Notes under the pieces: generated by a model | The model's database searches: none | The model's input: the letters and a program-made list of their open reading frames with translations, nothing else | Told to the model about the DNA's origin: nothing | Translations under genes and position numbers: made by a program | IMG/VR virus record: IMGVR_UViG_3300014502_000001 | Span: 1 to 64,000 of that record | DNA from: a virus | Strand: one strand, 5' to 3' | DNA length: 64,000 nt | Shown here: positions 7,293 through 59,324 of the stretch, in pieces | How positions within the stretch are numbered: position 1 is the first letter of the stretch | How the letters are laid out: every line of letters begins with the position of its first letter

Positions 7293-7321
7293 ATTATACT
7301 GTTATCCATCCCTGATATCAA
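7293..7321 (-). promoter_or_regulatory. sigma70-like promoter TTGATA-N17-TATAAT, leaderless start
   Basis: -10 box 6 nt upstream of ATG 7286, no SD. Confidence 0.6.
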
Positions 7322-34518: not shown

Positions 34519-34546
34519 ATTATACTGTTCCCCAGCTTTTATTCAA
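34519..34546 (-). promoter_or_regulatory. sigma70-like promoter TTGAAT-N16-TATAAT
   Basis: Heads the recombination operon. Confidence 0.5.
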
Positions 34547-37500
34547 CCGGAATAATGCGCAAAAACATATCTGAAAACACCTTCACCGCCGCGTCCAACT
34601 CGGCCCTATGACTAGCATCATAGCTAACCATTGAAGGGTGGATACAATAGACCAGCCACGCACCCAGCGACTCACTCCATTCAGCCGTGCCGTTACGATC
34701 CATAATGCTAGCCTTATTGTCACCTGTGACCCAATGAAGCGCTGTTTTGCCAAGCGACAATATCAGCCTTGGCTTTTGCACCGCTATTTCTTTCCTGAGC
34801 CACTGAGCACTGCAAAACGCAGGAACGCGCAGATCAACAATCTTATTATCCTTGGGTCTACATTTCAGAACGTTGGTCACCCAGAAAAGATCTCTGCTCA
34901 GTCCATGCTTATCCAGAGAGCCCCAGAGCGTCCTACCCGCCTTGCCTACAAATGGAAGACCAGAAGCGTCCTCATCAGCGCCTGGAGCTTCACCAATAAT
35001 CATGGTCTGGAATATGCCCGCTGAAAAGGGTGTTGGTCTTTTGCATATCTTGTACGCTGGGCAAAGCTCGCACTTCTGAATATCAGCGGCCAGATTTATG
35101 GCCTCACGGCGTGTGTCAACATACGGCACTATGCCTCTGTAATCAAGCATTCCCAGATCGCCCTTTTTAATGTAATCCATAAATTGGAATCGATCCATGA
35201 ATATGTTTGACGTTTTGGCTGGCTTATTGGCACGCATGATGATCATACGGCTAGCAATTTCTTCAATCTCGCCCTTTAGCTCTGAATGATATAGCTTGCC
35301 AGTCACCGTTGAATAGGTCAGAGAAGTGTCGTCTCTAAATATGCCATAGCAGCCGCCCAGGTCTGACGCATATCCTTTAACATCCACATCACTGCCCGTG
35401 CCGTGCGACTGTTCCACCTTTTGCCTGAATCCAAACTTGATCTCATCATATTTGCCAATGTGATAAGAGTATTCCGGTATGGCCTCGTTCTCTCGGCCGG
35501 ACAGATATGAAAGCTTCTTCACGCGGAAGTGTCTGCTCAGCAGCTCCACAAGAGCCTTATTCTGGGTGAGATATTCCTCTGGCATTTCATAGGCTAGCAC
35601 GTCTGTCTCGACATATGCAGAAGCGTCAATATCCTTATATTGCTTCTCGCTGGTGGGAAACTTTTTCTTAGTCTCAAGATGCAGAACAAGCTTTTTGCGA
35701 TCCTCTTCAGATATGATTGAATCCAGAGCCTTGGAGCGCAGCAGGACTCTGATCTTTCCGATGTTGATCAAGCGCCTAGGAATATTGGCCGCAAAGTCAA
35801 ATATGTCCTCAAATTTACCGCCGTGCGCCTCCCGCGCCTTTACCAGCTCCAGGGCGGAGTTGGTACTGATACCTTTGATGATATCAAAGCCGCCGCGCAG
35901 CACGCCTGTATCTTCAATCGTCCATGAATATCCCGAGCAGTTAATGTCGGGAGATTTGATCTTCATGCCATGACGCTGAGCATCAGACAACAGTGGCACG
36001 ATGTCATCGTCCGAGGCTCGTACCAGAGTAGCATGGAAAAACTCTGTGGGATAATATACCTTTAACCACATCGTCCAATATCCCAGCATCGTATATTCAA
36101 CCGAGTGAGACTTATTGAAGCCATATGAATTATGGCTGACAAAATTGTTCGCGATGAAATTTGCAGGCTCTTCTTCCATCTCCATATCATAGGTCTCTCT
36201 CTCGCCTATAAACTTCTTCTCCACAATCTCCTCATCCTGAGTGAAATATCCTACACGATAGCGCCTGAACAAAGCGCTGTCAGTGTACGCTCTGTGATGC
36301 TTTCTGCAAAGAAGCATCGTGTTGTCCTCGGAATTGTCGGTCGTGTCGCCATTGATATGATGCATTTCAGGAAAACTCCCGGAGCCACAGACCTGGCAGC
36401 GACCACCATACTGATCCACAAGATGCTCACGACGCGCTTTTTCCTCATTAGTCGGACCCTCGCCTTTTCTGAATCTAGGACAAGTCTGGCCAAAGGACCC
36501 CGAGCCATATCCTTCTCCGTGTAATTTCTTCGGCAATTTCAGATCGCTGACTCTGATTCTGTCACCGACACTGATCTCAGAAACTGTCTTCCACTCTCCA
36601 CCAACCATAAAATGGTGCTCAGCGCTAGCGCGAACTGTTTTGTTACCGGCTGTCCTTATCAGATATACAGGCTTCATCCCTGTCTTCCATACTCTCTTTA
36701 TCGTATTGTAACGGACAAATCCATCATCATGCATCGATAGAATTTTCAAGCCACGACGCTTGAAATTATAATTATCCTGATACTTATACGCCTCCTCAAT
36801 AGTCATCTCGGAATCTTTGTGCTGATTAGAAGCACACCTGTATATTTTTGTATCACCAGTCAGGCATCCGAAGAATTTCATCAGCGTAAAAACCTTCTGG
36901 GCATCAGCCACCGACATGGTTCCAAGCTTTTGAACGCCCGCCAGCCAGTCTTTTCTGAATGTCTCAAACTTATCCTGGCCCTCAGATTTAGAAACTACCT
37001 TTCTGATGACATCCACCGTGCGCCAGGGGATGCCAGAAAGCTTATTCAGAATCCTCATCATCTGCTCTTGATAAAGAACGATGCCATATGTCTCGCCCAG
37101 CAGCTCTTTCATCTGAGCATTGATATAAGTTGGCTTTTCCACGCCGTCTTTATAAAGAATGAATTTGCTAGCCATACCGCTGCGCAGCGTGCCAGGTCTA
37201 AATAATGAATTCACCTGCACGAGCTCGTTGAAATTTTTAGGCTTAAAGTTGCGGATATACTGAATCATGCCCGCTGAGCCAAACTGAAATATGCCCGCCG
37301 TATCAGCCTTTGTAAAAGCCTCAAGCACTTTTGGGTCATCCAGCGGCAGCGTTGAATAATCAGCGACCACATTGTGACGGCGCTTTATCTCCTCTTTAGC
37401 TAGGCGCAGGATATTCAGCGTCTTCAGACCCAGAGCGTCTATCTTCATTACGCCGGCAAATTCAATATCATGCTTGTCCCAGTTGACCGCTAAATCGCCA

Positions 37501-39086
37501 GACTTGGTTTTCACCACAACACATTTGTGGCCTGAATATAAGTCCTCGACATCCACAACCAGACCCGCCGCGTGAACACCTTTAGTCTTAATGTTACCTT
37601 CGATCTTTTTGCAGATCTGGATAACATAGGGATATTTCTTATTAAACTCCTTAGCATTTTCGAACAGTGCCACTGTGTCCTCAACAGAAAAGTCAGCTCG
37701 CGCATCGCCGCCTGACCTGACCAGAATCTGTTTGGCTATTTGATCCACCTCAACCAGCGGCACCGAGAACACTCGTGACACGTCACGCACTACGCCGCGC
37801 CCCTTCATCGTGGAAAAGGTGCTCACAGCCGTCACAGAACGCTCACCATATTTGTCACGCATGTGCTGAATAACACGGTCGCGCTCAGCATCCTCAAAAT
37901 CCAAATCGATATCTGGCAGATCGTGACGCTCTGGGGAAATGAAGCGCTCAAACATCAGCCCATACTCGAGTGGATTCACGTCGGTGATGCCCAGCAAATA
38001 TGCCACCAGACTTCCACCCACAGAGCCGCGTCCAGGACCCACCATACAGCCATTGTGTTTAGCCCACAGAACCATTTCCTGAACAAGCAGAAAATATTCC
38101 GCAAAGCCTAGCTTGATGATCTCTCCCAATTCATATTCACAGCGCTCTACCACTTCCTCTGTACCCAGGGACTCAACATTCTCTATGACGTTGAAACACT
38201 GCTCACGCAAATATGCGCCAGGATCTTCACGCGCTTCCTCATAGGCTAGCGGCACACTGACCTTGCCCGCCTTAAATTCCCATGTGCACTTAGCCGCCAC
38301 CTCATCCCAGATCTCTGCCATCATCAGCTCTGAGTTCTTGAACCCAAGCTCCTGCGCACAGACCACCATTTCCTCATATGTTTTAAGATGCAGATCAGCC
38401 ATATCTGCGGGCGCGGGCTCGTTAGGTAGCATCTTCTGGTTGAAGCTCAAGCGCCTTATGACCTCACGCGCTTGCCAGTCCTCTGGCTTTATATAATGGA
38501 CATCACCAGTGAATATGATCTTACCACCCATCAGCTCCTGCATATCTCTGAGCAGTTGACTATACTCCCTCTGGGGAAGATAGTTCTTGAGCATTGGAGC
38601 TTCCCAATAAAAGTCGTCACCAAATTTATCCATGATCTGCGGAACCAGGTCACCCATATTTGGATGAGCCAGCACACCCTCTGTGCAAGCCGTCAAATAT
38701 ACACAGTCCTGTATCTCGCTCAAGAGATATTTCCAGTCAATACGCGGACGGATATAAAAGCCTTCTGTATTGGCCTTTGTTAAGGCACGCATGATGGAGC
38801 TAAAGCCGTTGCTATTTTTGGCCAGCAGCACAGCATGCCAGCGCCGCTTATCGCTGCGGTCAGCCAAATCATCAACGACATAAAACTCGCAACCCAAAAT
38901 GGGATTTGCGCCTGCCTTTTTAACGGTCTGATAAAACTGAATAGCTCCATCCACCGTTCCATGATCAGTTAAGGCTATGTCCTTAATGCCATATCCCTTG
39001 ATCACAGCATCAAGCTGATCAATGCGAATGATGGAATCTTGAATCGAGAACTCTGAATGGAAATGGAAAGCGCTAACAGGCTTCAT
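34539..39086 (-). CDS. dnaE: DNA polymerase III alpha with intein and C-terminal family-4 uracil-DNA glycosylase
   Basis: PHP HFHSEFS/TDHG, GRGS, PDIDLDF, HAAG, KIDALGL, YGFNKSH; UDG GEAPG..ED..G.PFVG.AG, TNVLKC, HPS. Confidence 0.95.
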   Translation of the reverse strand: MKPVSAFHFHSEFSIQDSIIRIDQLDAVIKGYGIKDIALTDHGTVDGAIQFYQTVKKAGANPILGCEFYVVDDLADRSDKRRWHAVLLAKNSNGFSSIMRALTKANTEGFYIRPRIDWKYLLSEIQDCVYLTACTEGVLAHPNMGDLVPQIMDKFGDDFYWEAPMLKNYLPQREYSQLLRDMQELMGGKIIFTGDVHYIKPEDWQAREVIRRLSFNQKMLPNEPAPADMADLHLKTYEEMVVCAQELGFKNSELMMAEIWDEVAAKCTWEFKAGKVSVPLAYEEAREDPGAYLREQCFNVIENVESLGTEEVVERCEYELGEIIKLGFAEYFLLVQEMVLWAKHNGCMVGPGRGSVGGSLVAYLLGITDVNPLEYGLMFERFISPERHDLPDIDLDFEDAERDRVIQHMRDKYGERSVTAVSTFSTMKGRGVVRDVSRVFSVPLVEVDQIAKQILVRSGGDARADFSVEDTVALFENAKEFNKKYPYVIQICKKIEGNIKTKGVHAAGLVVDVEDLYSGHKCVVVKTKSGDLAVNWDKHDIEFAGVMKIDALGLKTLNILRLAKEEIKRRHNVVADYSTLPLDDPKVLEAFTKADTAGIFQFGSAGMIQYIRNFKPKNFNELVQVNSLFRPGTLRSGMASKFILYKDGVEKPTYINAQMKELLGETYGIVLYQEQMMRILNKLSGIPWRTVDVIRKVVSKSEGQDKFETFRKDWLAGVQKLGTMSVADAQKVFTLMKFFGCLTGDTKIYRCASNQHKDSEMTIEEAYKYQDNYNFKRRGLKILSMHDDGFVRYNTIKRVWKTGMKPVYLIRTAGNKTVRASAEHHFMVGGEWKTVSEISVGDRIRVSDLKLPKKLHGEGYGSGSFGQTCPRFRKGEGPTNEEKARREHLVDQYGGRCQVCGSGSFPEMHHINGDTTDNSEDNTMLLCRKHHRAYTDSALFRRYRVGYFTQDEEIVEKKFIGERETYDMEMEEEPANFIANNFVSHNSYGFNKSHSVEYTMLGYWTMWLKVYYPTEFFHATLVRASDDDIVPLLSDAQRHGMKIKSPDINCSGYSWTIEDTGVLRGGFDIIKGISTNSALELVKAREAHGGKFEDIFDFAANIPRRLINIGKIRVLLRSKALDSIISEEDRKKLVLHLETKKKFPTSEKQYKDIDASAYVETDVLAYEMPEEYLTQNKALVELLSRHFRVKKLSYLSGRENEAIPEYSYHIGKYDEIKFGFRQKVEQSHGTGSDVDVKGYASDLGGCYGIFRDDTSLTYSTVTGKLYHSELKGEIEEIASRMIIMRANKPAKTSNIFMDRFQFMDYIKKGDLGMLDYRGIVPYVDTRREAINLAADIQKCELCPAYKICKRPTPFSAGIFQTMIIGEAPGADEDASGLPFVGKAGRTLWGSLDKHGLSRDLFWVTNVLKCRPKDNKIVDLRVPAFCSAQWLRKEIAVQKPRLILSLGKTALHWVTGDNKASIMDRNGTAEWSESLGAWLVYCIHPSMVSYDASHRAELDAAVKVFSDMFLRIIPVE
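36129..36866 (-). mobile_element. Intein (246 aa) with HNH endonuclease
   Basis: FFG|CLTGDT ... NFIANNFVSHN|SYGFNKSH; block B ASAEHHF; CQVC...HHINGDTTDN..DN...LCRKHH. Confidence 0.92.
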
Positions 39087-39089
39087 GCA

Positions 39090-40008
39090 TCACCATACCA
39101 ATTCAAATTTGATGGGCTCTTCTCTCTTCACGTTTATTTTAGTGATTGACTCAATAGCAGCACAGGCCTGCCACCAAAGCGCCGTATCACTAATGGGAAT
39201 CTTAGCGATCCAGAGATCATCATAGTCAGGATCTCTTTCCACGACAATCCTGCCAAATGTCCGACGAGTCTGCCAATAGGCTAGTCGCACAGTGACGATG
39301 CCGTCTCCCACATTTTCAATAAACGCCCTTATCCCTGGCAAGCGCTTAAATTCTGGAGTGGTATCATCGCGCCACTCAGCAGATTGTCGCACCTCTCTAT
39401 TCACCAGCCTATTCACTGCCGCTTCTATTTCCATAGGTCAGAATCTCAACAGAGCTTCAATGGGCCATTCCGGCTTGACGTCGAAATTGCCGTGCTCTTC
39501 AAGCACACATCTGCATGCGTGCCAGAAATTTTCGTCCTCATTTCGAAATACTCTGAGCACCCAAACATTTCTCGCCTTGCAGTCTTTCTCAAGGAAAGCC
39601 ATAGCGACGCCCAGCAGAGAACCATTCAGGCGCTTTAGTGTCACAGGAACGTGATTTGGCGCTTTCTCTTCTGGACAATAAAAACCCAGCATTCCTGGCA
39701 TCAGCTTGTAACGCTCAGGCAGCTGTTTCCACCACGCAGAGTTCTCCTTTTCTTCTCCGATCCGCTTGAAGAGTTTCACTTCTTTCATGATCATAATCAT
39801 TTCTCCTTTACAGATATCTTCCGTTTTCCCAAAGCACAGCTCCTGTCGTGGAGCTAACAACTCTCACCTTTTTGACTCTTGCACCGTCCCCAGAATCACG
39901 AATAGATATTGCAGCTTCTACTGCAGACTCTAGCGTATCTGTGACCTTAAAGTGAGCCCAGTTGAATTCTCTATTCCAGACTAATTCCACACAGAACTGA
40001 TCTCTCAT
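39090..40008 (-). other. Three hypothetical ORFs (39090-39434, 39438-39860, 39808-40008)
   Basis: Co-oriented, tightly packed. Confidence 0.55.
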
Positions 40009-40010
40009 GA

Positions 40011-40748
40011 TCAGCTCTTCACGAAATCTTTGATGCTCTGGACATATTTGCCTTCCACCGTTTCCAGCTTAGGCTTAAAGCCGCAGCCCTCGGCGTGAGG
40101 ACAAAAGCCGATATGCTCGCACGGCTTTTTGAACATGGGCCTGAATACGTCACCCATTTTCAGGCACACTTCCTCAATCATCAGAGCACTGACTTCTCGA
40201 ATTTCTCCCTGAGCCATCAGACAAAGGCGCGAGGATAAAAATGTCGAGAGATTGCGGAAGTTGATTGCCATCGTAATGGGTGAATGGATATTCAGCGGTA
40301 AAAGGCCGCGTGCCACTTGCACCTTTTCACCACGCTGAATAAGATGATTGTAGATGTCTTCGACCTTGAGCATGGATTGCTCATAGGCCATAGGATCTAT
40401 AACGTCGGGAGGCGTATGGTAGTCACCCGCCGTAGCAAAGCCTTCCTTGCTCACCACGCGCAAACTCTGGATGGAATATGCGGCGGTGCGGTGACGCGTG
40501 AGCTGCTGCTGAAAGGCACGACTCACATTTCTGAACAGCCAGTTGGTCAGGATGAATTCCTGCACGCCGCCCGTCAGCGGCTCGGCAGCCATGTACTCGA
40601 CAAAATCATTTTCCAGCTGCCGACTGACATGGCCCATAAACAGCGGATCATCAGAAACTTGACCGTGCATGTTCTTAAAAGCGAACAGCATTGTCCTCAA
40701 AGGCTCCGGCGTAAAATTGAAAAGAATGACCTGTGCGGTCTTACTCAT
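40011..40748 (-). CDS. thyX: Flavin-dependent thymidylate synthase
   Basis: SRAFQQQLTRHRTAAYSIQSLR, ARGLLP, NFRNL, R.C..AQGEIR. Confidence 0.88.
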   Translation of the reverse strand: MSKTAQVILFNFTPEPLRTMLFAFKNMHGQVSDDPLFMGHVSRQLENDFVEYMAAEPLTGGVQEFILTNWLFRNVSRAFQQQLTRHRTAAYSIQSLRVVSKEGFATAGDYHTPPDVIDPMAYEQSMLKVEDIYNHLIQRGEKVQVARGLLPLNIHSPITMAINFRNLSTFLSSRLCLMAQGEIREVSALMIEEVCLKMGDVFRPMFKKPCEHIGFCPHAEGCGFKPKLETVEGKYVQSIKDFVKS

Positions 40749-40767
40749 GGTGTTCTCCTATGGTCAT

Positions 40768-40796
40768 ATTATAGCCCAAACGAAAGACAAAGTAAA
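40768..40796 (-). promoter_or_regulatory. sigma70-like promoter TTTACT-N17-TATAAT
   Basis: Upstream of the thyX SD (AGGAG). Confidence 0.6.
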
Positions 40797-40807
40797 TGGG
40801 AAACATC

Positions 40808-41752
40808 CTATCGTTCCCACGACAATTTGACGGCTGCAGTATAAGGTTTTCCCCTTGAAGCCAGTCGCAATATCTTGTCGTCGCCAGGCAGCGGCTTGCG
40901 CGTCCGCTGAACAAGACCTATGCGCGGCTGCTTAGCGTCACAGCCTTTACAGACAGATATGTCACGCTGGCCCCAATAGAGCTTGCGCCGCGCCGCCGCG
41001 AATATGGGTGAGTCCCAGATCTTTTGTACGCCCTCTTTGGCCACGTTGCCTATTTTTAGCACACCTCTGAAATCATTGCAACAAATGGCCACATTTCCGT
41101 CCCAGCGTATAGACAGCTCTCTGAAAGGAAGCACACACCGCTTGCCAGCCATTTTTTCATTGGGTGGAGCTCCGCAGCCGCAATGGTTGGACAGATATGA
41201 ATGGGTGCCGCGCTTAGCCTTAGTGATATCGTCGATGATGACAAGAGTGTGATCATTCGGCCTGCGCCGCTTATGAGGATTAGCTATTTTTTCATCAGGA
41301 TATAAACGCACATCAATAGCTGTCTCGCCAGCCAGAACCTGATCCAGGACATCAGCCACAGTCGTGCTGCCGGCATGACGATAGTCGCTCATGCCAATCG
41401 TGTTCAGGCCTGCTTGGAATATAGCGTTGATCTGCGCAGCGGCGTCCTTCACAAAGCCGTGACCGTTGGTCAGCATGAGCATGCTGGCCTTGGGCAACGC
41501 CGCCCTGAATATGGAGACGATCTCGTCCTTGTCAGGATTCAGGCTAGGCTCGCCGTGCATATTAAATTCAATCCTGCTATTCCAGCCCGCCGCCGCTATG
41601 CTCTCAGCAATTTTCTGGGCAGTGGCTGGAGTCATATATTTGAAATCAGGACGCGTGCCTCTGATTCCATTTATGCCACAGTAGCTACACCGCCGCGAGC
41701 AGCCCTCTGTCAGCTCAACCTGGATGCTCCAAGGCGCTTTACTAGCCTTCAT
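40808..41752 (-). CDS. Radical SAM protein with SPASM/twitch domain
   Basis: CSRRCSYC, HGEP, TNG, C..PF.ELSIRWDGNVAICCND, C..C. Confidence 0.9.
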   Translation of the reverse strand: MKASKAPWSIQVELTEGCSRRCSYCGINGIRGTRPDFKYMTPATAQKIAESIAAAGWNSRIEFNMHGEPSLNPDKDEIVSIFRAALPKASMLMLTNGHGFVKDAAAQINAIFQAGLNTIGMSDYRHAGSTTVADVLDQVLAGETAIDVRLYPDEKIANPHKRRRPNDHTLVIIDDITKAKRGTHSYLSNHCGCGAPPNEKMAGKRCVLPFRELSIRWDGNVAICCNDFRGVLKIGNVAKEGVQKIWDSPIFAAARRKLYWGQRDISVCKGCDAKQPRIGLVQRTRKPLPGDDKILRLASRGKPYTAAVKLSWER

Positions 41753-42090
41753 GCGAGAGCCTTTTTTTTGAGCTCCTGCTGCTCGTAAAGCTTGGCAACG
41801 ACTCTGGCTGCAGCACCCTGGCCCAGATCCCGATCATATCCCCACTCCTCAAACTGATCAGGATTTTCGAGATTGACTTTCATGACTCGTCCGTACAGAT
41901 AATCGAATTTTTTGCTTGGCCCCATGCCAGGATAATCAGGCAGAGTTTGTTTCCCTTCCAGCAGCTCAGCGGCCTGTTCCCTGGTCATATCCCCAGGACG
42001 AGCCTGCAGAAAGCCCATCCCCTGGACATGCGATGCGTTATACAGTGCGGCCAGAACATCAGCGGGCAGAAGTCCTTTTGTCGAAATCAT
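41749..42090 (-). CDS. Hypothetical protein
   Basis: Start moved to ATG 42090 (SD GGAG); FDYLYGRVMKV, YDRDLG.GAA. Confidence 0.6.
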   Translation of the reverse strand: MISTKGLLPADVLAALYNASHVQGMGFLQARPGDMTREQAAELLEGKQTLPDYPGMGPSKKFDYLYGRVMKVNLENPDQFEEWGYDRDLGQGAAARVVAKLYEQQELKKKALA

Positions 42091-43064
42091 GATTGGTTCT
42101 CCTTGGATTTTTGCTGTTCCATTTTCTTCAGCCAGGTAGGAACATATATGACCTTTTTTGTGGCCAGGTCGATCATAGGTCGCTGGCTCATTGTGGCCCA
42201 GCGATCCGACTTCATGCGCATTTCCTGCATGTAGTTGCAAACGTCTTTTGCAAAATTGCCCGTCTCTTTGTGAAAGGTATTCCACATCAGATCCAGCCAC
42301 CGCGTGCCACCCGCGAAATATGGCGACCGCCCTAGCTGCTCAATTTCACAATGGCGCGTAAAAGCGCAGCGGCTGTTTGTGTACCACTTAGGCGAGAAAA
42401 ATGCATTGACGTCGATATCACGCATGCCAAAGCCTAGACCAGGATTATACCAGTGATAGGCGCAGCCCGCGTAAAGAACATATCCTCGCACGTTGGCAAT
42501 TTTCTTAGGATTCTTTTTGTGCAGGAACTCTTCCATCATAGATATGGCTTTCTTCCGAATGCGCGTCAGATTCTTTTTGTCCTGATGCCAGTCGTAATTG
42601 CGATACGTGCTGAGTGTTTCAGCATCATATATTTTCTCTTCCAGCTGTGGATTGCCCAGCTTCACGATAAACTCTTTCAGCTTAACTGGATTACCGGCAG
42701 GGTGTTTGCCATATCTGACAATGGTGGGGAATCCAGGCTTGACCGGGATGTTGGGATATTTCACCACATAGTCCACGTCATATAGCAGCGCTAGCTGGCG
42801 CATCTGATCCACCATTTCATAGCCCTTACGCGGGTGGATATAGTACCACAGAAAAACAAACTTGCGTGCCATGCTAGTCAGCAGATCGAACATGGGCTTG
42901 CCATGCTCGTCCTGCGCATAAACGTGATCCTCGCCATCAATGTCGTTGACGACATAAACCTTAGACTCTGGGAAATGATCCTGAAATTTGACCGCCATCG
43001 CGATCGTCACATCCAGAATCTTTTCCTCGTCCTCATCAGGATTAACCACAATCACATCATTCAT
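42087..43064 (-). CDS. Protein with C-terminal Pol-beta-like nucleotidyltransferase domain
   Basis: LYAGCAYH...GMRDIDV and a third Asp in RWLDL. Confidence 0.55.
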   Translation of the reverse strand: MNDVIVVNPDEDEEKILDVTIAMAVKFQDHFPESKVYVVNDIDGEDHVYAQDEHGKPMFDLLTSMARKFVFLWYYIHPRKGYEMVDQMRQLALLYDVDYVVKYPNIPVKPGFPTIVRYGKHPAGNPVKLKEFIVKLGNPQLEEKIYDAETLSTYRNYDWHQDKKNLTRIRKKAISMMEEFLHKKNPKKIANVRGYVLYAGCAYHWYNPGLGFGMRDIDVNAFFSPKWYTNSRCAFTRHCEIEQLGRSPYFAGGTRWLDLMWNTFHKETGNFAKDVCNYMQEMRMKSDRWATMSQRPMIDLATKKVIYVPTWLKKMEQQKSKENQS

Positions 43065-44290
43065 TTGTACTTCTCCACGACCTTAGCAGATTTTTCCCAA
43101 TACATTTTTTCAAAGTCCGCTGTATCAAAACCAAACAGCAGATATATTGAAAGTAGGAACTTGAAGATATCCGTCAGCTCCTCAAGGATCCTTTCCCTGT
43201 CCAGCTTTACCGCACCAGGCTTGCTGCCGAACTTCCAGTTGATGGTGTCCAGGAAGTCATTGCTCTCGCTGAATAGATGGAGAACGTAGTTTTTAGCCGC
43301 CCGTTGGACGGCCTCTAAATCTGGCGCATAGCTAACAAACTTCCTGTTGAACGCTTTCTGATCGCTGAATATGCTCTCCATAAAAAATTTATTGGAGCTG
43401 CGCTGAATAACTGCCTTCATCGTGATGTCAGGATTCCACTCGCCATAGCGCCCGAGGAACATCACGTTGGGTGGAGCTATGTTTTCATGGCTGCGCAGAA
43501 TCCGAGCTCCAGGCATAATAATGGAATCCTGAAAAGGCAAAGAACCTTCAATGGCGATGACGTCTCCTTGTAGCACCTTGGAACGCCGCACTCGATCAAA
43601 GCCAAATTTCTCCTCAGGGAAATATACCATGGACTCTTCGGGCAGCTCCGGATAGCCACATCCTAGCCACTGGTCATCTGACATCGTGCCCGTATAAAGT
43701 GGAAACGACATCAGCACCTTATGCTCGGCGTGTGGGCCTTCATAAATCTTCCAGAATACATTCGCAGGAATCGTACTCACCAGATGGCTGTATTCCAGCG
43801 CCTTATCATTATCCAGAACAATCTGCTTTTCAGATATGGAGACAACCTTTCTGTTAATCACTCTTTTCTCAGCCAGCCTATAGTGAAGCAAATCCAGCAG
43901 TGTTTTGGCACTAAGATGATATGTGTGCATAAGGCCGCGATCACCGCTCACGTATGGGCCGGCAAGGATGTCCTCAGCAGGGAATAAAGACGGTGGCCGC
44001 TCATGGCCGCTGAGCTTTTTCTTCATCAGGTCACGCTTTACATCATCAGGTGGTTCACCCTGATTATATTTTCCGTCCTTGAAATATCCGATGGTGATGT
44101 CCAACTGCGACGAGCTTATATCCAGGTCAGCCAGGAACTCGTCGCACGCCTTACACTTAGGCAGGATAAGGCTGTGTTGAAAGCTAGCCACGTCCGACTG
44201 CGCGCCCGCCGCTGGAGCAATTCTGGTGTACTCTGGATTGTAAAACTGAAAAATTTTAGCACTCAACCCATTACCAAGTATAATCTTCAT
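43061..44290 (-). CDS. FAD-dependent oxidoreductase-like domain fused to an all-alpha dUTPase/dCTPase
   Basis: IILGNGLS Rossmann start, LVSTIP, FLGRYGEW; C-terminal Q..FN, E....L..INWK, LEELTD.FKF. Confidence 0.7.
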   Translation of the reverse strand: MKIILGNGLSAKIFQFYNPEYTRIAPAAGAQSDVASFQHSLILPKCKACDEFLADLDISSSQLDITIGYFKDGKYNQGEPPDDVKRDLMKKKLSGHERPPSLFPAEDILAGPYVSGDRGLMHTYHLSAKTLLDLLHYRLAEKRVINRKVVSISEKQIVLDNDKALEYSHLVSTIPANVFWKIYEGPHAEHKVLMSFPLYTGTMSDDQWLGCGYPELPEESMVYFPEEKFGFDRVRRSKVLQGDVIAIEGSLPFQDSIIMPGARILRSHENIAPPNVMFLGRYGEWNPDITMKAVIQRSSNKFFMESIFSDQKAFNRKFVSYAPDLEAVQRAAKNYVLHLFSESNDFLDTINWKFGSKPGAVKLDRERILEELTDIFKFLLSIYLLFGFDTADFEKMYWEKSAKVVEKYK

Positions 44291-44835
44291 CACACTTCTC
44301 CTTGCAAAAGAATCGCTGGAGAAAAATACTCTCCGACTATAATCCATCTGAAATATTCCTTCCAGCGTTTTCTATTTGAATTAACTTTAATATTACAACC
44401 AGTACAAAGCTCTATCAAATTATTAGACCAATTATGCTTTTTATTGTAATCAATATGATGAACAGGATGTCTTCTTTTTCCCTCTTTAGTGTTACAAAGC
44501 TGACATATATGACCGTCACGATCACGAATTTGCTCTCGCAATTCAGGCGTCCATCTTGTACCATATTTTTCAGAGCTCTTGCCGCCCAGCCAGCTAGGAT
44601 GATTCACAGGATCTACAAAACGTCGTATCTGAGCTAAACTCTGTTTTGCAATTGTTTCTTCACTATGCTGCTTACCGAGATTACCGTGTGCATTCACATT
44701 ACCAAGTTTTGCAAGACTCATCTTTGCTCGTGTATTCTTGCTGTGTTTTCTGCCATAGAAAGGATTATTTGCACCAGCAGTAATCAGACTTATTTTAATC
44801 TTGGCCTCTTTGCTGTGGTGACTTCCCTTTCTCAC
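44290..44835 (-). CDS. NUMOD3-HNH homing endonuclease (paralogue of 3274-3984)
   Basis: MRKGSHHS; NNPFYGRKHS; QIRDRDGHICQLC...HPVHHIDYNKKHNW. Confidence 0.85.
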   Translation of the reverse strand: MRKGSHHSKEAKIKISLITAGANNPFYGRKHSKNTRAKMSLAKLGNVNAHGNLGKQHSEETIAKQSLAQIRRFVDPVNHPSWLGGKSSEKYGTRWTPELREQIRDRDGHICQLCNTKEGKRRHPVHHIDYNKKHNWSNNLIELCTGCNIKVNSNRKRWKEYFRWIIVGEYFSPAILLQGEV

Positions 44836-45173
44836 AGCTTCTCCTTTTCTATTTGCGCATCGATGTCCAGCGCATAATATAGAACCGCAAAATTGATGAT
44901 ATCAATAACTGAGTCGCGCACATCAGCACCGACATCACGCTTGCAATTACTCAGAGATATAAGGCGACTCGTCTTTTTGATGATCTCGTAAAGCGCCCTA
45001 TGCGCTGGAATATCCATGTTCAGCTTCAGCAGCTTGCATATTTCAGCGTCACGCTTGAACGAGTCCAAGAAATCGGAGTTGATGGCATTATAGCGCCCGC
45101 CTTTATCCACCAGCATATCTGCGCAGTTTTTGAGCAGCCCGTCAGCGATGGGTTTGAATTCCTGATACTTCAT
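44832..45173 (-). CDS. Nucleotide-modification-associated (Nmad1/DUF1599-like) helical protein
   Basis: L..KG..Y......F...K..RL...DSVID.INFA. Confidence 0.6.
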   Translation of the reverse strand: MKYQEFKPIADGLLKNCADMLVDKGGRYNAINSDFLDSFKRDAEICKLLKLNMDIPAHRALYEIIKKTSRLISLSNCKRDVGADVRDSVIDIINFAVLYYALDIDAQIEKEKL

Positions 45174-46543
45174 TATTTCACCTCTGGATCTGGAGTGGCT
45201 TCAACATCTGCGGCGATTGCGTCCTCGTCAGAAACGCGCTCGCCGATGATATGGCACAATTCCCTTTCAATGATAACATGCGCAGTACGACGATCCTTAG
45301 CCTTGCGCCCACCGGCCAAGAATATTCTTAGCTTTTTTACCTTGGCCTCTTCGATATCCTGATTCAACGTCAGGATCATATCTGCGTCACGCATCGGCTC
45401 AAGGGAATCCGCTGAATCATCCAGATCAACAGTGTGCTTTTTCTTTGCACCACGAGTAGCTTGATGGAGCAGCCAGACGGGAACGTGATAGCGCTGAGCC
45501 AAGGAGATCAGCTCTTTGCATATTTGACCAAGCACTTCATAGCGCTCTCCTGGTCGCGACACCCATCTTCCATTAGTGATCATCAGCGTCAGATAATCAA
45601 CAATGACCAAAGCTGGAATAAACTTTTCCCTTGCCCGCATGCGAGCTAAGTGGTTTTCAATCGCCAGCGTGTTACACGTCAGCGCTGGGAAATGCTTAAT
45701 GACCAAGCGCCCGTTAGCCGCGTCGGCACGATGGGCCTCAACTCTTTCGCGCACTTCATCCTCGTGCGCCCTAAGCTGGTCTCTGGGGATACCAGATATG
45801 AGACAATCATAATTGTCGGTGATGTCGGTTGGTGTGCCTTCCATAATATAGTGGGCTACATTTTTCTGATTCCATACGGCGTTGGCACCCAGGTTCACCG
45901 ACAATGTGGTCTTACCTTTTTTAGCAAAGCCAAGGATAACGCCCAATTCACCTGGAGCTAGCCCGCCGCCTAATATGTAATCCAAATGCTGAATGCCTGT
46001 GCTGATAGCCAACTGGGCACGCGTGATGCCGCTGCGCCTGTCCTCTAGGCGCTTTTCCAAGTCCTCATAATATAGCGTCCCAAGGTCTTTACTGTTTTCT
46101 CCGATGGCCAGGGCCACGCGTACCTTTTCCAGGATATCGTTGTAATTCTTTTTCTTGCGAATGATGTCAGCGCTTTCAGCCATAGCCGCTTTGATGCCCT
46201 GATACCGCGCAAATTCTACCGCCTTATCTTTAACATATGAAAAGTCCGCAGAGTCCACCATGCTGGTCACTTCCTGATAGACGGTCAGGTACTCGTCCAC
46301 AGGGAGCTTTTTCTTACTCTCCAGAAATGTTTCAAACTCCGTCGTCAGCTCATCCAAGTCTGGCAAGCGATTATATTTACCATGGAAGGCATAGACGATC
46401 ACCATGATGTCAGACACCGCTGGGTTGTCAAACATTTCTGGAGTTATAGACTCCGCCGTATCAAGAAATTCCTCATCAGTGGAAAGGATCCACGCCGCTA
46501 TTTTTTTCTGGATAGGATCTGAAAAAGGAAACTGTTCAGACAT
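45173..46543 (-). CDS. DnaB/gp41-like replicative helicase
   Basis: STGI..LD..LGGGL..GEL, GFAKKGKT, IVDY, HQATR. Confidence 0.88.
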   Translation of the reverse strand: MSEQFPFSDPIQKKIAAWILSTDEEFLDTAESITPEMFDNPAVSDIMVIVYAFHGKYNRLPDLDELTTEFETFLESKKKLPVDEYLTVYQEVTSMVDSADFSYVKDKAVEFARYQGIKAAMAESADIIRKKKNYNDILEKVRVALAIGENSKDLGTLYYEDLEKRLEDRRSGITRAQLAISTGIQHLDYILGGGLAPGELGVILGFAKKGKTTLSVNLGANAVWNQKNVAHYIMEGTPTDITDNYDCLISGIPRDQLRAHEDEVRERVEAHRADAANGRLVIKHFPALTCNTLAIENHLARMRAREKFIPALVIVDYLTLMITNGRWVSRPGERYEVLGQICKELISLAQRYHVPVWLLHQATRGAKKKHTVDLDDSADSLEPMRDADMILTLNQDIEEAKVKKLRIFLAGGRKAKDRRTAHVIIERELCHIIGERVSDEDAIAADVEATPDPEVK

Positions 46544-58175: not shown

Positions 58176-59324
58176 TTATCTCCCTTGGCCGTCACGCGTC
58201 AGAGCCGTGATAAGCCTGTTTTGAAATTCGTTGGCCTGAGCCGTCGTGCAAGTACCCATGCGGAAGGCGCGAGGAACACCAACCGATGCCCGCCCGTCGT
58301 TCATATTCCAATAAGCGTTGGCCTGAGAAACCAAATTCATGGATTCGATCGAACCGGGAGTGCCCACAAACGTGGTTGCCCAACCGCGATCCTCGCGCAG
58401 CCCGAAAAGGTTAAGCTCAAGATTCCTGCTAGGCCGCACCCGCGCTAGCGCCGTGCGCACACGAGTGGCAACCGCCGGAAGCCACTCATCGCTGAAATTG
58501 ACTCGTACCGAATTCGCCTCAGTACCAGGCTCCACGCCCGTAGTGTGGTGCGGTGCGGGCACCGACCAGAGCGCCATCAGATCCTTACAGCTCCGGTCGG
58601 CCAGGTCATCAGCGATGCAGCGGCGGAAGGCGCTCAGGTCAGCCGTGCTGATCCGGGCGATCCGTTTGTAATCCGAGTCGGAAGGAGTGGACTCATAAGT
58701 GATTTTGTCGTGGACCAAGCACATCCAAAAAATGCGCTTGACCATTTTCAGAACGGTCTCAGCCATTTCCTTATTCCGCCACAGGTTAGTGGGCGGAACG
58801 CGGTACTCAACACCCCAGGTCTGCCGCCGCCACGCGCCGAGGCTGTCATAGCCCGAGCCGCGCCGCGCTGAGCCAGCCAGATCGCGCAGAGGCTTGCCGA
58901 TGAAATCGTCCAGCACCTTTACGATCTCATTCATCTGGCCGTCGTTGAGATATACGCTTGTCTCTTCCTTGAGGCCCAGGTGGATATGGCCACCCAGCGA
59001 ATATCGATCGCCTCGGATGCTCAGCGTGTAATTGGCATAGCGCCTATTAAAGCCACGCAGCAGCCGCGCAAAGTCGTGAACCACGCGCCGAGTGGAATGA
59101 TGAAAACGCGGGCGGAACTCAACCTGGTCGCCGGAGCCGTCCACTCCGATCTGAGCATGGGTGCCGCCGCTGACCAAACGGCTAGCGCTGACGACCCGCT
59201 GACTGGAACGCTCCATCAGCTCAAACTCAGGATCCGCTCCAACCGTAATCTGGCTGGCCGAAAGGCTGCGCAGCTTAGGAGCCTGGTCCTCCGTCTTCCG
59301 AATGTTACGAGTGACTTTTGGCAT
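58176..59324 (-). CDS. phiEco32-like COOH-NH2 ligase (amidoligase)
   Basis: VGADPEF, DG..VEFRP, GGHIHLG, GVEYR. Confidence 0.8.
   Translation of the reverse strand: MPKVTRNIRKTEDQAPKLRSLSASQITVGADPEFELMERSSQRVVSASRLVSGGTHAQIGVDGSGDQVEFRPRFHHSTRRVVHDFARLLRGFNRRYANYTLSIRGDRYSLGGHIHLGLKEETSVYLNDGQMNEIVKVLDDFIGKPLRDLAGSARRGSGYDSLGAWRRQTWGVEYRVPPTNLWRNKEMAETVLKMVKRIFWMCLVHDKITYESTPSDSDYKRIARISTADLSAFRRCIADDLADRSCKDLMALWSVPAPHHTTGVEPGTEANSVRVNFSDEWLPAVATRVRTALARVRPSRNLELNLFGLREDRGWATTFVGTPGSIESMNLVSQANAYWNMNDGRASVGVPRAFRMGTCTTAQANEFQNRLITALTRDGQGR

What the first reader, a model, noticed from the sequence alone, without database searches (positions are those of the whole stretch)
40011..45173. Candidate novel DNA base-modification pathway
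Seen: contiguous Nmad1-like, (HNH), FAD-oxidoreductase-dUTPase, NTase-like, hypothetical, radical SAM-SPASM and ThyX genes between helicase and polymerase. Known: radical SAM, flavin enzymes and Nmad domains recur in phage thymidine hypermodification loci. I saw no hmU kinase, aGPT-Pplase, dCMP hydroxymethylase or 7-deazaguanine genes here, and ThyX reads QSLRV rather than the usual SxRY. Inference: an undescribed nucleotide-level modification.
Basis: partly seen in the sequence, partly recalled or inferred. Interest (0 to 1): 0.75.

Follow-up and report, generated by a model that had tools for sequence, protein, structure and literature searches.

The report
Phage ThyX-flavoprotein-radical SAM nucleotide cassette
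An uncultured 93-kb peat/permafrost phage carries, between its helicase and DNA polymerase genes, a variant of a widespread uncharacterised enzyme set that probably gives the phage a chemically altered, possibly sugar-bearing thymine, though no chemistry has been measured.

Summary
The genes are there as described. On the minus strand lie an Nmad1-like ORF, an inserted HNH homing endonuclease, a flavoprotein::all-alpha NTP-pyrophosphatase fusion, a Pol-beta NTase-like protein, an orphan ORF, a radical SAM enzyme and a histidine-less ThyX, between DnaB and DnaE-UDG.

The linkage is conserved. The flavoprotein fusion sits beside a divergent ThyX on at least 11 independent viral contigs, with DnaE or PolA backbones.

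Two results are new here. The radical SAM protein is BtrN-like, that is, a sugar/cyclitol-alcohol dehydrogenase type. It also nests inside a large viral family whose usual neighbours are a 5-hmdU DNA kinase, a TAGT-type glycosyltransferase and a dUMP-hydroxymethylase-type ThyA.

The complete genome has none of those three genes, nor aGPT-Pplase or deazaguanine genes.

Best reading (about 0.45): a pool-level pathway to a C5-modified, possibly sugar-type, thymidine. It is related to the cassette of PB1-like phages, whose DNA carries hypermodified thymidine with no genes assigned. Plain dTMP supply remains a serious rival.

This scan has flagged the core cassette before in at least 21 other genomes.

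The parts
45173..46543 (-). DnaB-type replicative helicase (upstream flank of the cluster)
   Evidence: Pfam DnaB_C 4e-21 and phrog_19 7e-65. It holds the same position in L002, L099 and L104.
44832..45173 (-). 113-aa helical ORF, weakly Nmad1-like (PF07659/DUF1599)
   Evidence: PF07659 E 0.029, 15.2 bits, below the 25-bit cut-off. Three of the small ORFs scanned with it reach 1.3e-5; which three the tool did not report. Orthologues (36-38% id) lie directly after DnaB in L002, L099 and L104.
44290..44835 (-). Free-standing HNH-NUMOD3 homing endonuclease. It is a mobile insertion, not part of the pathway.
   Evidence: NUMOD3 1e-19 and many HNH PHROGs. It is absent from the syntenic L002, where the 113-aa ORF abuts the flavoprotein gene.
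43061..44290 (-). Flavoprotein (small UGM/amine-oxidase-like FAD domain, residues ~1-300) fused to an all-alpha NTP pyrophosphatase (MazG/dUTPase_2-like, ~305-409)
   Evidence: - N-terminal GxGxxA, 'VSTIP' and 'FLGRY' motifs; conserved E342, E370/E371 and D374 in the C-domain.
- dUTPase_2, 28.3 bits.
- AlphaFold model, pLDDT 73; Foldseek top hits are UDP-galactopyranose mutase 4dsh/4dsg, E 3e-10.
- BFVD rank 3 is a Pbunavirus PA5 protein.
- Family size: 1086 cluster representatives at E<=1e-10, both fused and ~300-aa unfused forms.
42087..43064 (-). 325-aa two-domain protein. The C-terminal half is a Pol-beta-type nucleotidyltransferase-like fold; the N-terminal alpha/beta domain is of unknown function.
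   Evidence: - No Pfam, NCBIfam or PDB sequence hit.
- 45 metagenomic homologues with invariant G200, D216, D218 and D258.
- Model pLDDT 87.
- Fold matches: ANT(4') E 0.013; TENT5B Z 5.7, ANT(4') Z 5.5, CCA enzyme Z 5.2.
- It lies directly upstream of DnaE in L005, L008, L009, L010 and L011, without the flavoprotein or rSAM.
41749..42090 (-). Small ORF (113 aa from the first ATG after the upstream stop; the longest frame, 183 aa, overlaps the NTase gene). It is an orphan.
   Evidence: No family hit and no tblastn match in any fetched locus. In L002 the NTase and rSAM genes are only 30 nt apart.
40808..41752 (-). BtrN-like radical SAM enzyme with a twitch/SPASM auxiliary-cluster domain
   Evidence: - C18xxxC22xxC25 motif; Radical_SAM and SPASM Pfam hits.
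- PDB: BtrN (4m7t) E 8.5e-17 over residues 9-129 and 187-272, with Cys aligned at BtrN's C-terminal cysteine positions (C206, C224/C225, C268, C271). The next hit is PqqE at 0.0033.
- Nested in a viral family of over 300 proteins.
40768..40796 (-). Promoter-like TTTACT-17-TATAAT in the 59-nt gap before ThyX
   Evidence: Consensus scan, 10 of 12 matches. Such sites are only about 2 sd above the shuffles, so this is weak.
40011..40748 (-). Divergent ThyX (Thy1 family) lacking the histidines of the HxSxxEH segment
   Evidence: - Thy1, 100 bits; TIGR02170 65 bits, below its 87.9 equivalog cut-off.
- RHRx7S kept; R85, R87, R147 and R174 invariant in the clade; 'GGVQEF' and 'SLRV' replace the usual motifs.
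- At most 31% identical to any cultured-phage ThyX. 289 of the 406 matching phage records are Pseudomonas phages, including a Pbunavirus (H22), and the longest full-length matches include Kyle, Pluto and MyoSmar.
39090..40008 (-). Three small ORFs (39808-40008, 39438-39860, 39090-39434) between ThyX and DnaE. This slot holds an HD (YfbR-like) nucleotidase in relatives.
   Evidence: No family hits. L002 and L104 carry an HD/YfbR-like gene here, at 1.5e-24.
34539..39086 (-). DnaE-type polymerase with an HNH intein and a C-terminal family-4 UDG domain (downstream flank; the presumed consumer of the nucleotide product)
   Evidence: DNA_pol3_alpha 3.5e-75, Intein_splicing 1e-13, UDG 1.4e-23.

Best explanation
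The cluster is a variant of a widespread, uncharacterised phage cassette that rewrites the thymidine nucleotide supply for the phage's own DNA polymerase.

Proposed steps, all inferred:
1. The all-alpha NTP-pyrophosphatase domain converts a pyrimidine dNTP (dUTP and/or dTTP) to the monophosphate.
2. The histidine-less ThyX, working with the fused UGM-like flavoprotein, puts a one-carbon or larger substituent on C5 of dUMP that is not simply reduced to methyl. 5-hydroxymethyl-dUMP is the simplest product.
3. After phosphorylation the base enters DNA through DnaE.
4. The BtrN-like radical SAM enzyme oxidises a hydroxyl of a sugar-like or hydroxymethyl side chain. The Pol-beta NTase-like protein may nucleotidylate a hydroxyl, in place of the 5-hmdU DNA kinase of classical clusters.

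Shown here: the domain identities, the conserved flavoprotein-ThyX linkage, and the kinship of the radical SAM gene with those of 5-hmdU kinase / glycosyltransferase / dUMP-hydroxymethylase clusters. Not shown: any substrate, any product, or any modified base in this phage's DNA.
For: 1. Synteny. L002 has DnaB, the 113-aa ORF, the flavoprotein fusion, NTase, rSAM, ThyX, HD and DnaE-UDG in the same order.

2. Linkage across distance. Flavoprotein::NTP-PPase homologues at 23-50% identity lie next to or within two genes of a divergent ThyX on at least 11 non-redundant contigs, including a PolA backbone. Contigs: L100-L104, L107, L109, L110, L115, L123-L128, L130. This argues against mere co-inheritance with DnaE.

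3. Free-nucleotide enzymes travel with the pair in relatives: HD/YfbR-like, HAD/NT5C and thymidylate-kinase-like genes. This parallels the dTTPase / dTMPase / hydroxymethylase / kinase logic of hmU phages (established knowledge; phiW-14 summary in PMC5977210).

4. The ThyX keeps its RHRx7S motif and dUMP-binding arginines but has lost the histidines of the HxSxxEH segment. It scores below the ThyX equivalog cut-off.

5. rSAM context. The family has over 311 proteins and 180 IMG/VR loci. In the 77 loci analysed its neighbours are TAGT-type glycosyltransferase (60), ThyA-like (60) and 5-hmdU DNA kinase (57). That ThyA is 42-44% identical to those of PaMx11 and Ab18 and to Bordetella-phage genes annotated 'deoxyuridylate hydroxymethyltransferase'. 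The window's rSAM nests inside this clade, with SH-like supports of 0.81 and 0.98 on the path. It is followed by ThyX where the others are followed by ThyA.

6. The rSAM is BtrN-like, E 8.5e-17, with Cys aligned at BtrN's C-terminal cysteine positions. BtrN is an alcohol-to-ketone dehydrogenase of a sugar-like substrate.

7. Cultured relatives. Pbunaviruses carry a small GxGxxG flavoprotein, ThyX and DnaE in the same module. hhalign to the flavoprotein family gives 78% probability, E 1.9e-5, and a Pbunavirus PA5 protein is BFVD fold rank 3. F8 and 14-1 virion DNA holds hypermodified thymidine, with nucleosides of 362 and 390 U replacing about a quarter of T, read as tetrose-alcohol and pentose derivatives, with no genes assigned (PMC12191111).
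Against: - No analytical data exist for this uncultured phage.
- A dUTPase-like domain followed by ThyX is also the textbook route to ordinary dTMP.
- The Pbunavirus mark is confined to TG contexts. A pool-level enzyme alone cannot explain that.
- The complete genome lacks 5-hmdU kinase, TAGT, ThyA and aGPT-Pplase, so the classical downstream chemistry is missing.
- The rSAM's nearest tree neighbours (L050/51, L076, L090) sit in fragmentary records with neither ThyX nor ThyA.
- rSAM and NTase are present in only a minority of flavoprotein-ThyX loci, and the NTase tracks DnaE rather than the enzymes.
- Homology to the Pbunavirus flavoprotein rests on modest scores.
- The slot between DnaB and DnaE is variable, so some genes may be unrelated cargo.
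Confidence: 0.45

Rival explanations
1. Ordinary thymidylate supply and uracil hygiene. The MazG/dUTPase_2 domain is a dUTPase that feeds dUMP to a sequence-divergent but functional ThyX making dTMP. The fused flavoprotein supports ThyX redox or one-carbon supply. The rSAM, NTase-like and small ORFs are unrelated cargo in a variable slot.
For: - The Thy1 domain is well above Pfam gathering, with RHRx7S and the dUMP arginines intact.
- The dUTPase_2 hit.
- The polymerase carries a UDG domain, so uracil control matters to this phage.
- The genome has no other thymidylate synthase.
- rSAM and NTase are absent from most flavoprotein-ThyX loci.
- A later check recorded in the scan's notes reached a similar reservation for the Pbunavirus cassette.
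Against: - The ThyX histidines are lost, and the score is below the equivalog cut-off.
- An obligatory, widely conserved UGM-like flavoprotein partner has no role in known ThyX biochemistry.
- dTMP-destroying-type enzymes (HD/YfbR-like, NT5C-like) accompany the pair in relatives.
- The rSAM comes from a hypermodification-cluster family.
- Cultured phages with the related module do have modified thymidine.
Confidence: 0.3
2. Post-replicative or non-DNA chemistry. The BtrN-like rSAM, the NTase-like protein and the flavoprotein make or modify a small molecule, such as a nucleotide-sugar or aminocyclitol-like metabolite or an anti-defence nucleotide, or they modify RNA. Virion DNA is not altered.
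For: - BtrN and ANT(4'), the best sequence and fold matches of two of the proteins, both act on aminoglycoside-type small molecules.
- UGM acts on a nucleotide-sugar.
- The genome has a separate glycosyltransferase/methyltransferase island that could use such products for non-DNA targets.
Against: - The cluster sits between helicase and polymerase and is coupled to ThyX and nucleotide hydrolases across many phages.
- The rSAM family is otherwise embedded with a DNA-acting 5-hmdU kinase.
Confidence: 0.12
3. No functional unit. The genes are a chance assembly of independently mobile accessory genes in a recombination-prone slot of the replication module.
For: - The slot differs between close relatives (window, L002, L104, L099) and holds a homing endonuclease.
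- The window's rSAM is closer to rSAMs of unrelated phages (45-50% id) than to the syntenic L002 copy (31%).
Against: - The same enzyme types recur together at 23-30% identity in different backbones and in different orders.
- Genes overlap or abut, which suggests translational coupling.
Confidence: 0.08

Closest known systems
ThyX-flavoprotein-phosphatase module of PB1-like phages (Pbunavirus F8, 14-1, PA5), Pantoea phage Kyle, Luteibacter phage Pluto
   Same: A divergent ThyX lies just upstream of the phage DnaE, preceded by a small GxGxxG flavoprotein. F8 and 14-1 DNA contains hypermodified thymidine with no genes assigned.
   Different: In the window the flavoprotein is fused to a MazG-type NTP-pyrophosphatase rather than accompanied by a PNK/HAD-type phosphatase. 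ThyX identity is only about 26-30%. The window adds a BtrN-like rSAM and an NTase-like protein. The link between the genes and the modification is unproven even in Pbunavirus.
5-hmdU-derived thymidine hypermodification clusters (M6, ViI, PaMx11, phiW-14, SP10; Lee et al. 2018, 2021)
   Same: A TS-family enzyme, nucleotide-pool hydrolases and tailoring enzymes that include flavin and radical SAM classes sit beside the polymerase. The window's rSAM family normally lies inside clusters with 5-HMUDK and a dUMP-hydroxymethylase-type ThyA.
   Different: The window has no ThyA-family hydroxymethylase, 5-HMUDK or aGPT-Pplase. The characterised rSAM (M6 gp53) is spore-photoproduct-lyase-like, not BtrN-like. 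PaMx11 gp47, the characterised flavoenzyme, was not among the top fold matches listed.
BtrN, radical SAM 2-deoxy-scyllo-inosamine dehydrogenase (PDB 4m7t)
   Same: The sequence match covers the rSAM core and the auxiliary-cluster domain, with Cys aligned at BtrN's C-terminal cysteine positions, E 8.5e-17.
   Different: The viral context and unknown substrate. The window protein is about 60 residues longer, with a family-specific insert between the two matched stretches.
UDP-galactopyranose mutase (Glf/UGM; 4dsg, 4dsh)
   Same: Best solved-structure match of the FAD domain, E 3e-10. Both are non-redox-type small GR2 flavoproteins that handle nucleotide-linked substrates (the second point is an inference).
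   Different: About 300 residues against 380-500, with TM only 0.4-0.46 and 11% identity. The mutase substrate domain is not evident, and UGM catalytic residues were not tested.
Bacillus phage SP-15 (two Thy1-family genes; 5-(4',5'-dihydroxypentyl)uracil made at the nucleotide level)
   Same: It is a precedent in print for proposing a ThyX-family protein as a hydroxymethyl-dUMP synthase, and for a sugar-derived C5 side chain built before polymerisation (PMC5977210).
   Different: The SP-15 assignment is itself a hypothesis. No sequence comparison with SP-15 gp130 was made here.
T4 / SPO1 nucleotide-replacement sets (dCTPase/dUTPase, hydroxymethylase, dNMP kinase, dTMPase)
   Same: The logic is the same: destroy the canonical dNTP, then build and phosphorylate the replacement.
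   Different: The enzyme families differ throughout: ThyX instead of ThyA, and MazG-type instead of trimeric dUTPase-type. The window itself has no kinase.

Membership tests
ThyX, flavin-dependent thymidylate synthase (Pfam Thy1 / TIGR02170) | Thy1 domain above the Pfam gathering score | tested here: met
   100 bits against 24.8.
ThyX, flavin-dependent thymidylate synthase (Pfam Thy1 / TIGR02170) | Score above the NCBIfam equivalog cut-off (same function as characterised ThyX) | tested here: not met
   TIGR02170 65 bits against a cut-off of 87.9.
ThyX, flavin-dependent thymidylate synthase (Pfam Thy1 / TIGR02170) | RHRx7S signature and dUMP-binding arginines | tested here: met
   RHRTAAYSIQS is present. 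R85, R87, R147 and R174 are invariant and align to the canonical ThyX arginines.
ThyX, flavin-dependent thymidylate synthase (Pfam Thy1 / TIGR02170) | Histidines of the HxSxxEH segment (T. maritima His53 region, near flavin and folate) | tested here: not met
   The segment reads PLTGGVQEF, with no His in any register. C. glutamicum ThyX has HTALLEH at the aligned place.
ThyX, flavin-dependent thymidylate synthase (Pfam Thy1 / TIGR02170) | dUMP to dTMP activity | not testable with these tools
   Needs a thyA complementation test or an enzyme assay.
BtrN-like radical SAM dehydrogenase (twitch/SPASM) | CxxxCxxC radical SAM cluster motif | tested here: met
   C18, C22 and C25, invariant in 20 family members.
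BtrN-like radical SAM dehydrogenase (twitch/SPASM) | C-terminal auxiliary [4Fe-4S] cluster cysteines aligned with BtrN | tested here: met
   C206, C224/C225, C268 and C271 align to cysteines in BtrN's C-terminal domain; which BtrN cysteines ligate the cluster is recalled, not shown by the tool. Whole-protein E 8.5e-17, next hit 0.0033. SPASM Pfam hit 1e-12.
BtrN-like radical SAM dehydrogenase (twitch/SPASM) | Oxidation of a secondary alcohol of a cyclitol or sugar | not testable with these tools
   Inferred from the nearest characterised relative only.
5-hmdU-derived thymidine hypermodification cluster (Lee et al. 2018/2021) | ThyA-family dUMP hydroxymethylase | tested here: not met
   No PF00303 hit in scans of all ORFs. 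tblastn with 12 cluster ThyA proteins gave only a 26%-identity match at E 0.002.
5-hmdU-derived thymidine hypermodification cluster (Lee et al. 2018/2021) | 5-hmdU DNA kinase (PF18723) | tested here: not met
   No match at E<=1 in the complete genome.
5-hmdU-derived thymidine hypermodification cluster (Lee et al. 2018/2021) | aGPT-Pplase / amino-acid:DNA transferase | tested here: not met
   No such Pfam family among the hits from about 115 ORFs. A very divergent member could be missed.
5-hmdU-derived thymidine hypermodification cluster (Lee et al. 2018/2021) | Tailoring enzyme shared with such clusters | tested here: met
   The rSAM nests within the family found beside HMUDK, TAGT and ThyA in 57-60 of 77 loci.
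Pbunavirus-type ThyX-flavoprotein-phosphatase cassette | Histidine-less or divergent ThyX next to the phage DnaE | tested here: met
Pbunavirus-type ThyX-flavoprotein-phosphatase cassette | Small UGM-like flavoprotein homologous to the Pbunavirus one | tested here: inconclusive
   hhalign probability 78%, E 1.9e-5, over the N-terminal 93 residues only. A Pbunavirus PA5 protein is BFVD fold rank 3, E 2.7e-8.
Pbunavirus-type ThyX-flavoprotein-phosphatase cassette | HAD/PNK-type phosphatase fusion | tested here: not met
   None in the window. A MazG-type domain is fused to the flavoprotein instead. A HAD/NT5C gene is present in the relative L104.
All-alpha NTP pyrophosphatase (MazG / dUTPase_2) | Family HMM above cut-off and conserved acidic metal-binding residues | tested here: met
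   PF08761, 28.3 bits against 22.9. E342, E371 and D374 are invariant in A1. Substrate specificity is unknown.
Pol-beta superfamily nucleotidyltransferase | hG[GS]...DxD plus a third carboxylate on the NTase fold | tested here: inconclusive
   The motif is present and invariant: G200, D216, D218, D258. Fold matches are only Z 4.7-5.7 and Foldseek E 0.013. There is no Pfam NTase hit. ESM Atlas gives leads only.
Nmad1 (PF07659, nucleotide modification associated domain 1) | Family HMM above the gathering score | tested here: not met
   The 113-aa ORF scores 15.2 bits against 25, E 0.029. Three of the small ORFs scanned with it reach 1.3e-5; which three the tool did not report.
UDP-galactopyranose mutase | Full UGM architecture and sequence family | tested here: not met
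   No Pfam GLF or NAD_binding_8 hit. The domain is about 300 aa, with TM 0.38-0.46 and 11% identity to 4dsg/4dsh. It resembles UGM in fold only.

The most novel reading that the evidence does not exclude
A ThyX-family enzyme has been re-tooled, with a dedicated UGM-like flavoprotein::NTP-pyrophosphatase partner, into a flavin-dependent dUMP C5-hydroxymethylase or alkylase. It would make a non-canonical pyrimidine nucleotide that is polymerised by DnaE. A BtrN-like radical SAM dehydrogenase would then tailor it, and a Pol-beta-type nucleotidyltransferase would stand in for the 5-hmdU DNA kinase. That would be a second, evolutionarily independent route to sugar-type hypermodified thymidine, and the genetic basis of the unassigned Pbunavirus modification.
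Probability: 0.22. Interest if true: 0.88.

Novelty: new variant of a known kind. Interest (0 to 1): 0.62.

Why it matters
Phage DNA hypermodifications defeat restriction and CRISPR-type defences, and they supply new enzymology. PB1-like therapeutic phages were found in 2025 to carry a modified thymidine whose genes are unknown. The core pair here, a histidine-less ThyX with a small flavoprotein, is the leading candidate for it.

This window adds an independent line of evidence. Its BtrN-like radical SAM gene is shared with classical 5-hmdU kinase / glycosyltransferase clusters. That points to sugar or alcohol side-chain chemistry on thymine and makes the question testable with a defined four-gene set.

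If the ThyX really hydroxymethylates or alkylates rather than methylates, that would be a new reaction for flavin-dependent thymidylate synthases.

Tried and rejected
Contexts of most metagenomic homologues (P0002-P0182) could therefore not be read, and I relied on the search for related loci.
- GenBank phages: no DNA match to the cluster. No tblastn match for the flavoprotein fusion, for the NTase-like protein or for a distant flavoprotein homologue. Only one weak hit for the rSAM.
- Single-sequence IMG/VR scans for the flavoprotein and the NTase found nothing. Alignment-based scans were needed.
- NTase-like protein against TAGT and the unknown families c12 and c21 of the HMUDK clusters: no relation.
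- A1 against the Pbunavirus and Pluto flavoproteins: not significant. The broader profile A9 gave 78%. A9 against the Pbunavirus 'polynucleotide kinase': no match.
- PDB sequence search of the flavoprotein and NTase proteins: nothing useful.
- Laid contigs from three peat/permafrost DNA runs and one metatranscriptome. Near-identical phage DNA is present in other studies. No contig bridges an HNH-less junction. The RNA contigs are too few to show transcription. These are assembled contigs, so they cannot report base modification.
- The records holding the rSAM's nearest tree neighbours have neither Thy1 nor ThyA, but they are 36-79% complete fragments.
- The promoter and terminator scan is barely above shuffles.
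- I considered that the NTase-like protein is a polymerase accessory or a base-excision-repair gap-filler, given its adjacency to DnaE-UDG. Nothing tests this.

Full report
**Setting**

The window is the first 64 kb of a complete 92,771-bp virus record with direct terminal repeats. Nearly all of its genes lie on the minus strand. It encodes:
- a T4-like portal and Gp23-type capsid;
- DnaB, primase, RecA, a gp32-like protein, SbcCD and a UvsW-like helicase;
- a DnaE-type polymerase with an HNH intein and a C-terminal UDG domain.

Near-identical DNA occurs in permafrost and peat metagenomes from several studies. No cultured phage matches it at the DNA level.

**The observation**

- **ThyX** (40011-40748) and the **radical SAM/SPASM protein** (40808-41752) are unambiguous Pfam hits.
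- **Flavoprotein fusion** (43061-44290, 409 aa). The database homologues begin at MKIILG, so the 428-aa frame is too long. It has a C-terminal dUTPase_2/MazG-type domain above the Pfam cut-off. Its N-terminal roughly 300-residue domain has a GxGxxA motif. The model (pLDDT 73) matches UDP-galactopyranose mutase first, then protoporphyrinogen and amine oxidases and flavin halogenases.
- **325-aa protein** (42087-43064). It has no family. Its 45 metagenomic homologues share an invariant G...DxD plus a third Asp. A confident model (pLDDT 87) shows a C-terminal half weakly resembling Pol-beta-type nucleotidyltransferases: ANT(4'), TENT5, CCA-adding enzymes and CD-NTases, at Z 4.7-5.7.
- **113-aa ORF** (44832-45173). 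It reaches only E 0.029 against Nmad1/PF07659, so 'Nmad1-like' is a lead, not a membership.
- **HNH-NUMOD3 gene**. It is a homing endonuclease, absent from the syntenic relative.
- **Small ORF** (41749-42090). It has no homologue anywhere I looked.

The listed absences hold for the whole genome. A direct family search found no 5-hmdU DNA kinase. There is no ThyA-family gene. Pfam scans of about 115 ORFs found no aGPT-Pplase, TGT or Que family.

**Is the linkage conserved?**

Yes, but unevenly.

A 15-kb contig (L002) repeats the order DnaB, 113-aa ORF, flavoprotein fusion, NTase-like, rSAM, ThyX, HD nucleotidase, DnaE-UDG, at 31-60% identity. Another close relative (L104) has DnaB, 113-aa ORF, unfused flavoprotein, HAD/NT5C nucleotidase, ThyX, HD, DnaE.

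Flavoprotein::NTP-PPase homologues at only 23-30% identity lie immediately upstream of divergent ThyX genes on many further contigs: L100-L103, L107, L109, L110, L115, L124-L126. These include a PolA-type backbone. They are sometimes accompanied by an rSAM/SPASM protein (L101, L103), a thymidylate-kinase-like gene (L103) or an HhH-GPD::ThyA-fragment fusion (L101).

The flavoprotein family is large. It has 1086 cluster representatives at E<=1e-10, as roughly 400-aa fusions and roughly 300-aa stand-alone proteins.

The NTase-like gene behaves differently. In more distant phages it sits directly in front of DnaE, with a small MazG/Nmad1-like ORF but without the flavoprotein or rSAM. I therefore treat it as an optional or polymerase-linked component.

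**The ThyX**

The window protein belongs to a divergent clade.
- It keeps RHRx7S and the arginines that bind dUMP in solved ThyX structures.
- Where canonical enzymes have HxSxxEH it reads GGVQEF, with no histidine.
- It has SLRV for SxR[YF].
- It scores below the NCBIfam equivalog cut-off.

A second clade that is also linked to the flavoprotein even has RNR in place of RHR. No cultured-phage ThyX is more than about 31% identical. Most of the 406 matching phage records (289) are Pseudomonas phages, among them a Pbunavirus, and the longest full-length matches include Pantoea phage Kyle, Luteibacter phage Pluto and Serratia MyoSmar.

**The radical SAM enzyme (the new evidence)**

It has more than 300 homologues at 40-50% identity and 180 IMG/VR loci. 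I clustered the neighbours in 77 loci and annotated the clusters. The recurrent partners, in variable order, are:
- a TAGT-type glycosyltransferase (60 loci);
- a ThyA-like gene (60 loci);
- a 5-hmdU DNA kinase (57 loci);
- PolA (57 loci);
- an HD hydrolase (40 loci).

That ThyA is 42-44% identical to the ThyA homologues of PaMx11 and Ab18 and of Bordetella phages, annotated there as deoxyuridylate hydroxymethyltransferase. Lee et al. showed that PaMx11 builds its hypermodification on 5-hmdU, and Ab18 is predicted to do so.

In a tree rooted with the L101 and L103 rSAMs, the window's protein nests inside this clade (SH-like supports 0.81 and 0.98 on the path). The L002 copy is basal. So the rSAM slot of the ThyX cassette has been filled from a 5-hmdU-type cluster. 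The gene that follows the rSAM is ThyX here, where it is ThyA there.

Against the PDB, the window protein alone matches BtrN at E 8.5e-17. The match covers both the core and the auxiliary-cluster domain, with cysteines aligned at BtrN's C-terminal cysteine positions. The next hit is PqqE at 0.0033 (family profile). BtrN oxidises a hydroxyl of an aminocyclitol to a ketone. This is a different rSAM type from the photoproduct-lyase-like isomerase gp53 of phage M6.

**Connection to cultured phages and earlier notes**

The scan's notebook shows the ThyX / UGM-like flavoprotein / phosphatase cassette flagged in at least 21 other genomes. It pointed me to Pbunavirus and to Yee et al. 2025. I checked both leads.
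- A Pbunavirus record has a 333-aa GxGxxG protein, then ThyX, a PNK-like gene, DnaQ and DnaE.
- The flavoprotein-family profile aligns to that protein at 78% probability.
- A Pbunavirus PA5 protein is the third-best viral fold match.
- The preprint reports that F8 and 14-1 virion DNA contains thymidine derivatives of 362 and 390 U. They replace about a quarter of T, in TG contexts, and are read as tetrose-alcohol and cyclised pentose derivatives. No genes are assigned.

By my arithmetic these masses equal 5-hmdU plus a tetritol or a pentose, minus water. Kropinski et al. 2018 had already hypothesised a Thy1-family hydroxymethyl-dUMP synthase in SP-15.

**Mechanism and its weaknesses**

The most economical reading has four inferred steps:
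1. NTP-PPase: dNTP to dNMP.
2. Altered ThyX plus flavoprotein: dUMP to a C5-hydroxymethyl or larger adduct.
3. Incorporation into DNA by DnaE.
4. Side-chain tailoring by the BtrN-like rSAM, and possibly by the NTase-like protein.

Only the domain assignments and gene linkages are shown.

Against this reading:
- dUTPase followed by ThyX is also the ordinary dTMP route.
- The TG specificity in Pbunavirus needs a DNA-level enzyme.
- This genome lacks the kinase and transferase of classical clusters.
- rSAM and NTase are minority add-ons.
- The rSAM's closest neighbours sit in fragments without any TS gene.

I put the modification reading at about 0.45, plain dTMP supply at about 0.30, and the remainder on other chemistry or a non-unit.

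**Novelty**

This is a new variant of a known kind, namely phage thymidine-modification clusters. It belongs to an uncharacterised cassette that this scan has met repeatedly. It is distinguished by the flavoprotein::MazG fusion, the BtrN-like rSAM borrowed from 5-hmdU kinase clusters, and the NTase-like gene.

Noticed in passing
IMG/VR loci L016-L094 (e.g. L067:1-16960, L044:1-13626): A very common viral cluster type: 5-hmdU DNA kinase, TAGT-type glycosyltransferase, BtrN-like radical SAM and a dUMP-hydroxymethylase-type ThyA, usually with PolA and an HD hydrolase (57-60 of 77 loci). It often includes unknown families c12 (342 aa) and c21 (284 aa). It suggests a glycosylated, then oxidised, 5-hmdU, and I found no description of it.
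   Followed up: partly
Genome 82.2-88.0 kb, outside the window (L096:4246-10036, minus strand): An island of glycosyltransferases and a methyltransferase: a GT2 (253 aa), a class I SAM MTase (243 aa), a 901-aa protein with GT9+GT2+GT9 domains, and a 343-aa GT9. It could glycosylate DNA, virion proteins or host surface.
   Followed up: partly
window 34539-39086 (-): DnaE polymerase carrying an HNH-type intein (residues ~760-986) and a C-terminal family-4 UDG domain (residues 1362-1493). In L005 the UDG-like part is encoded upstream of the DnaE N-terminus instead.
   Followed up: no
L101:12281-13174 (+) and homologues in L124-L127: A fusion of an HhH-GPD DNA-glycosylase-like domain with a ThyA-family fragment lies directly after the divergent ThyX in the second cassette clade.
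   Followed up: no
window 58176-59324 (-): A phiEco32-like COOH-NH2 ligase (PF14395, 8.7e-15) among otherwise family-less early genes.
   Followed up: no
Whole genome (positions not mapped, except Tpt1, probably within window 7318-9585): Pfam hits to topoisomerase IB, a PARP catalytic domain, Tpt1/KptA RNA 2'-phosphotransferase, six DUF7211 paralogues, and a second NUMOD3/HNH endonuclease.
   Followed up: no
window 40669-40926, 44166-44454, 45288-45512: Short contigs from a wetland metatranscriptome run (X19) match these parts of the cluster at 99-100%. They are too few to separate transcription from carried-over DNA.
   Followed up: partly
L116:6323-7758 (+): A homologue of the unknown family c12 from the HMUDK clusters lies directly upstream of a divergent ThyX and DnaE. 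This would be a second gene family shared between the two cluster types.
   Followed up: no
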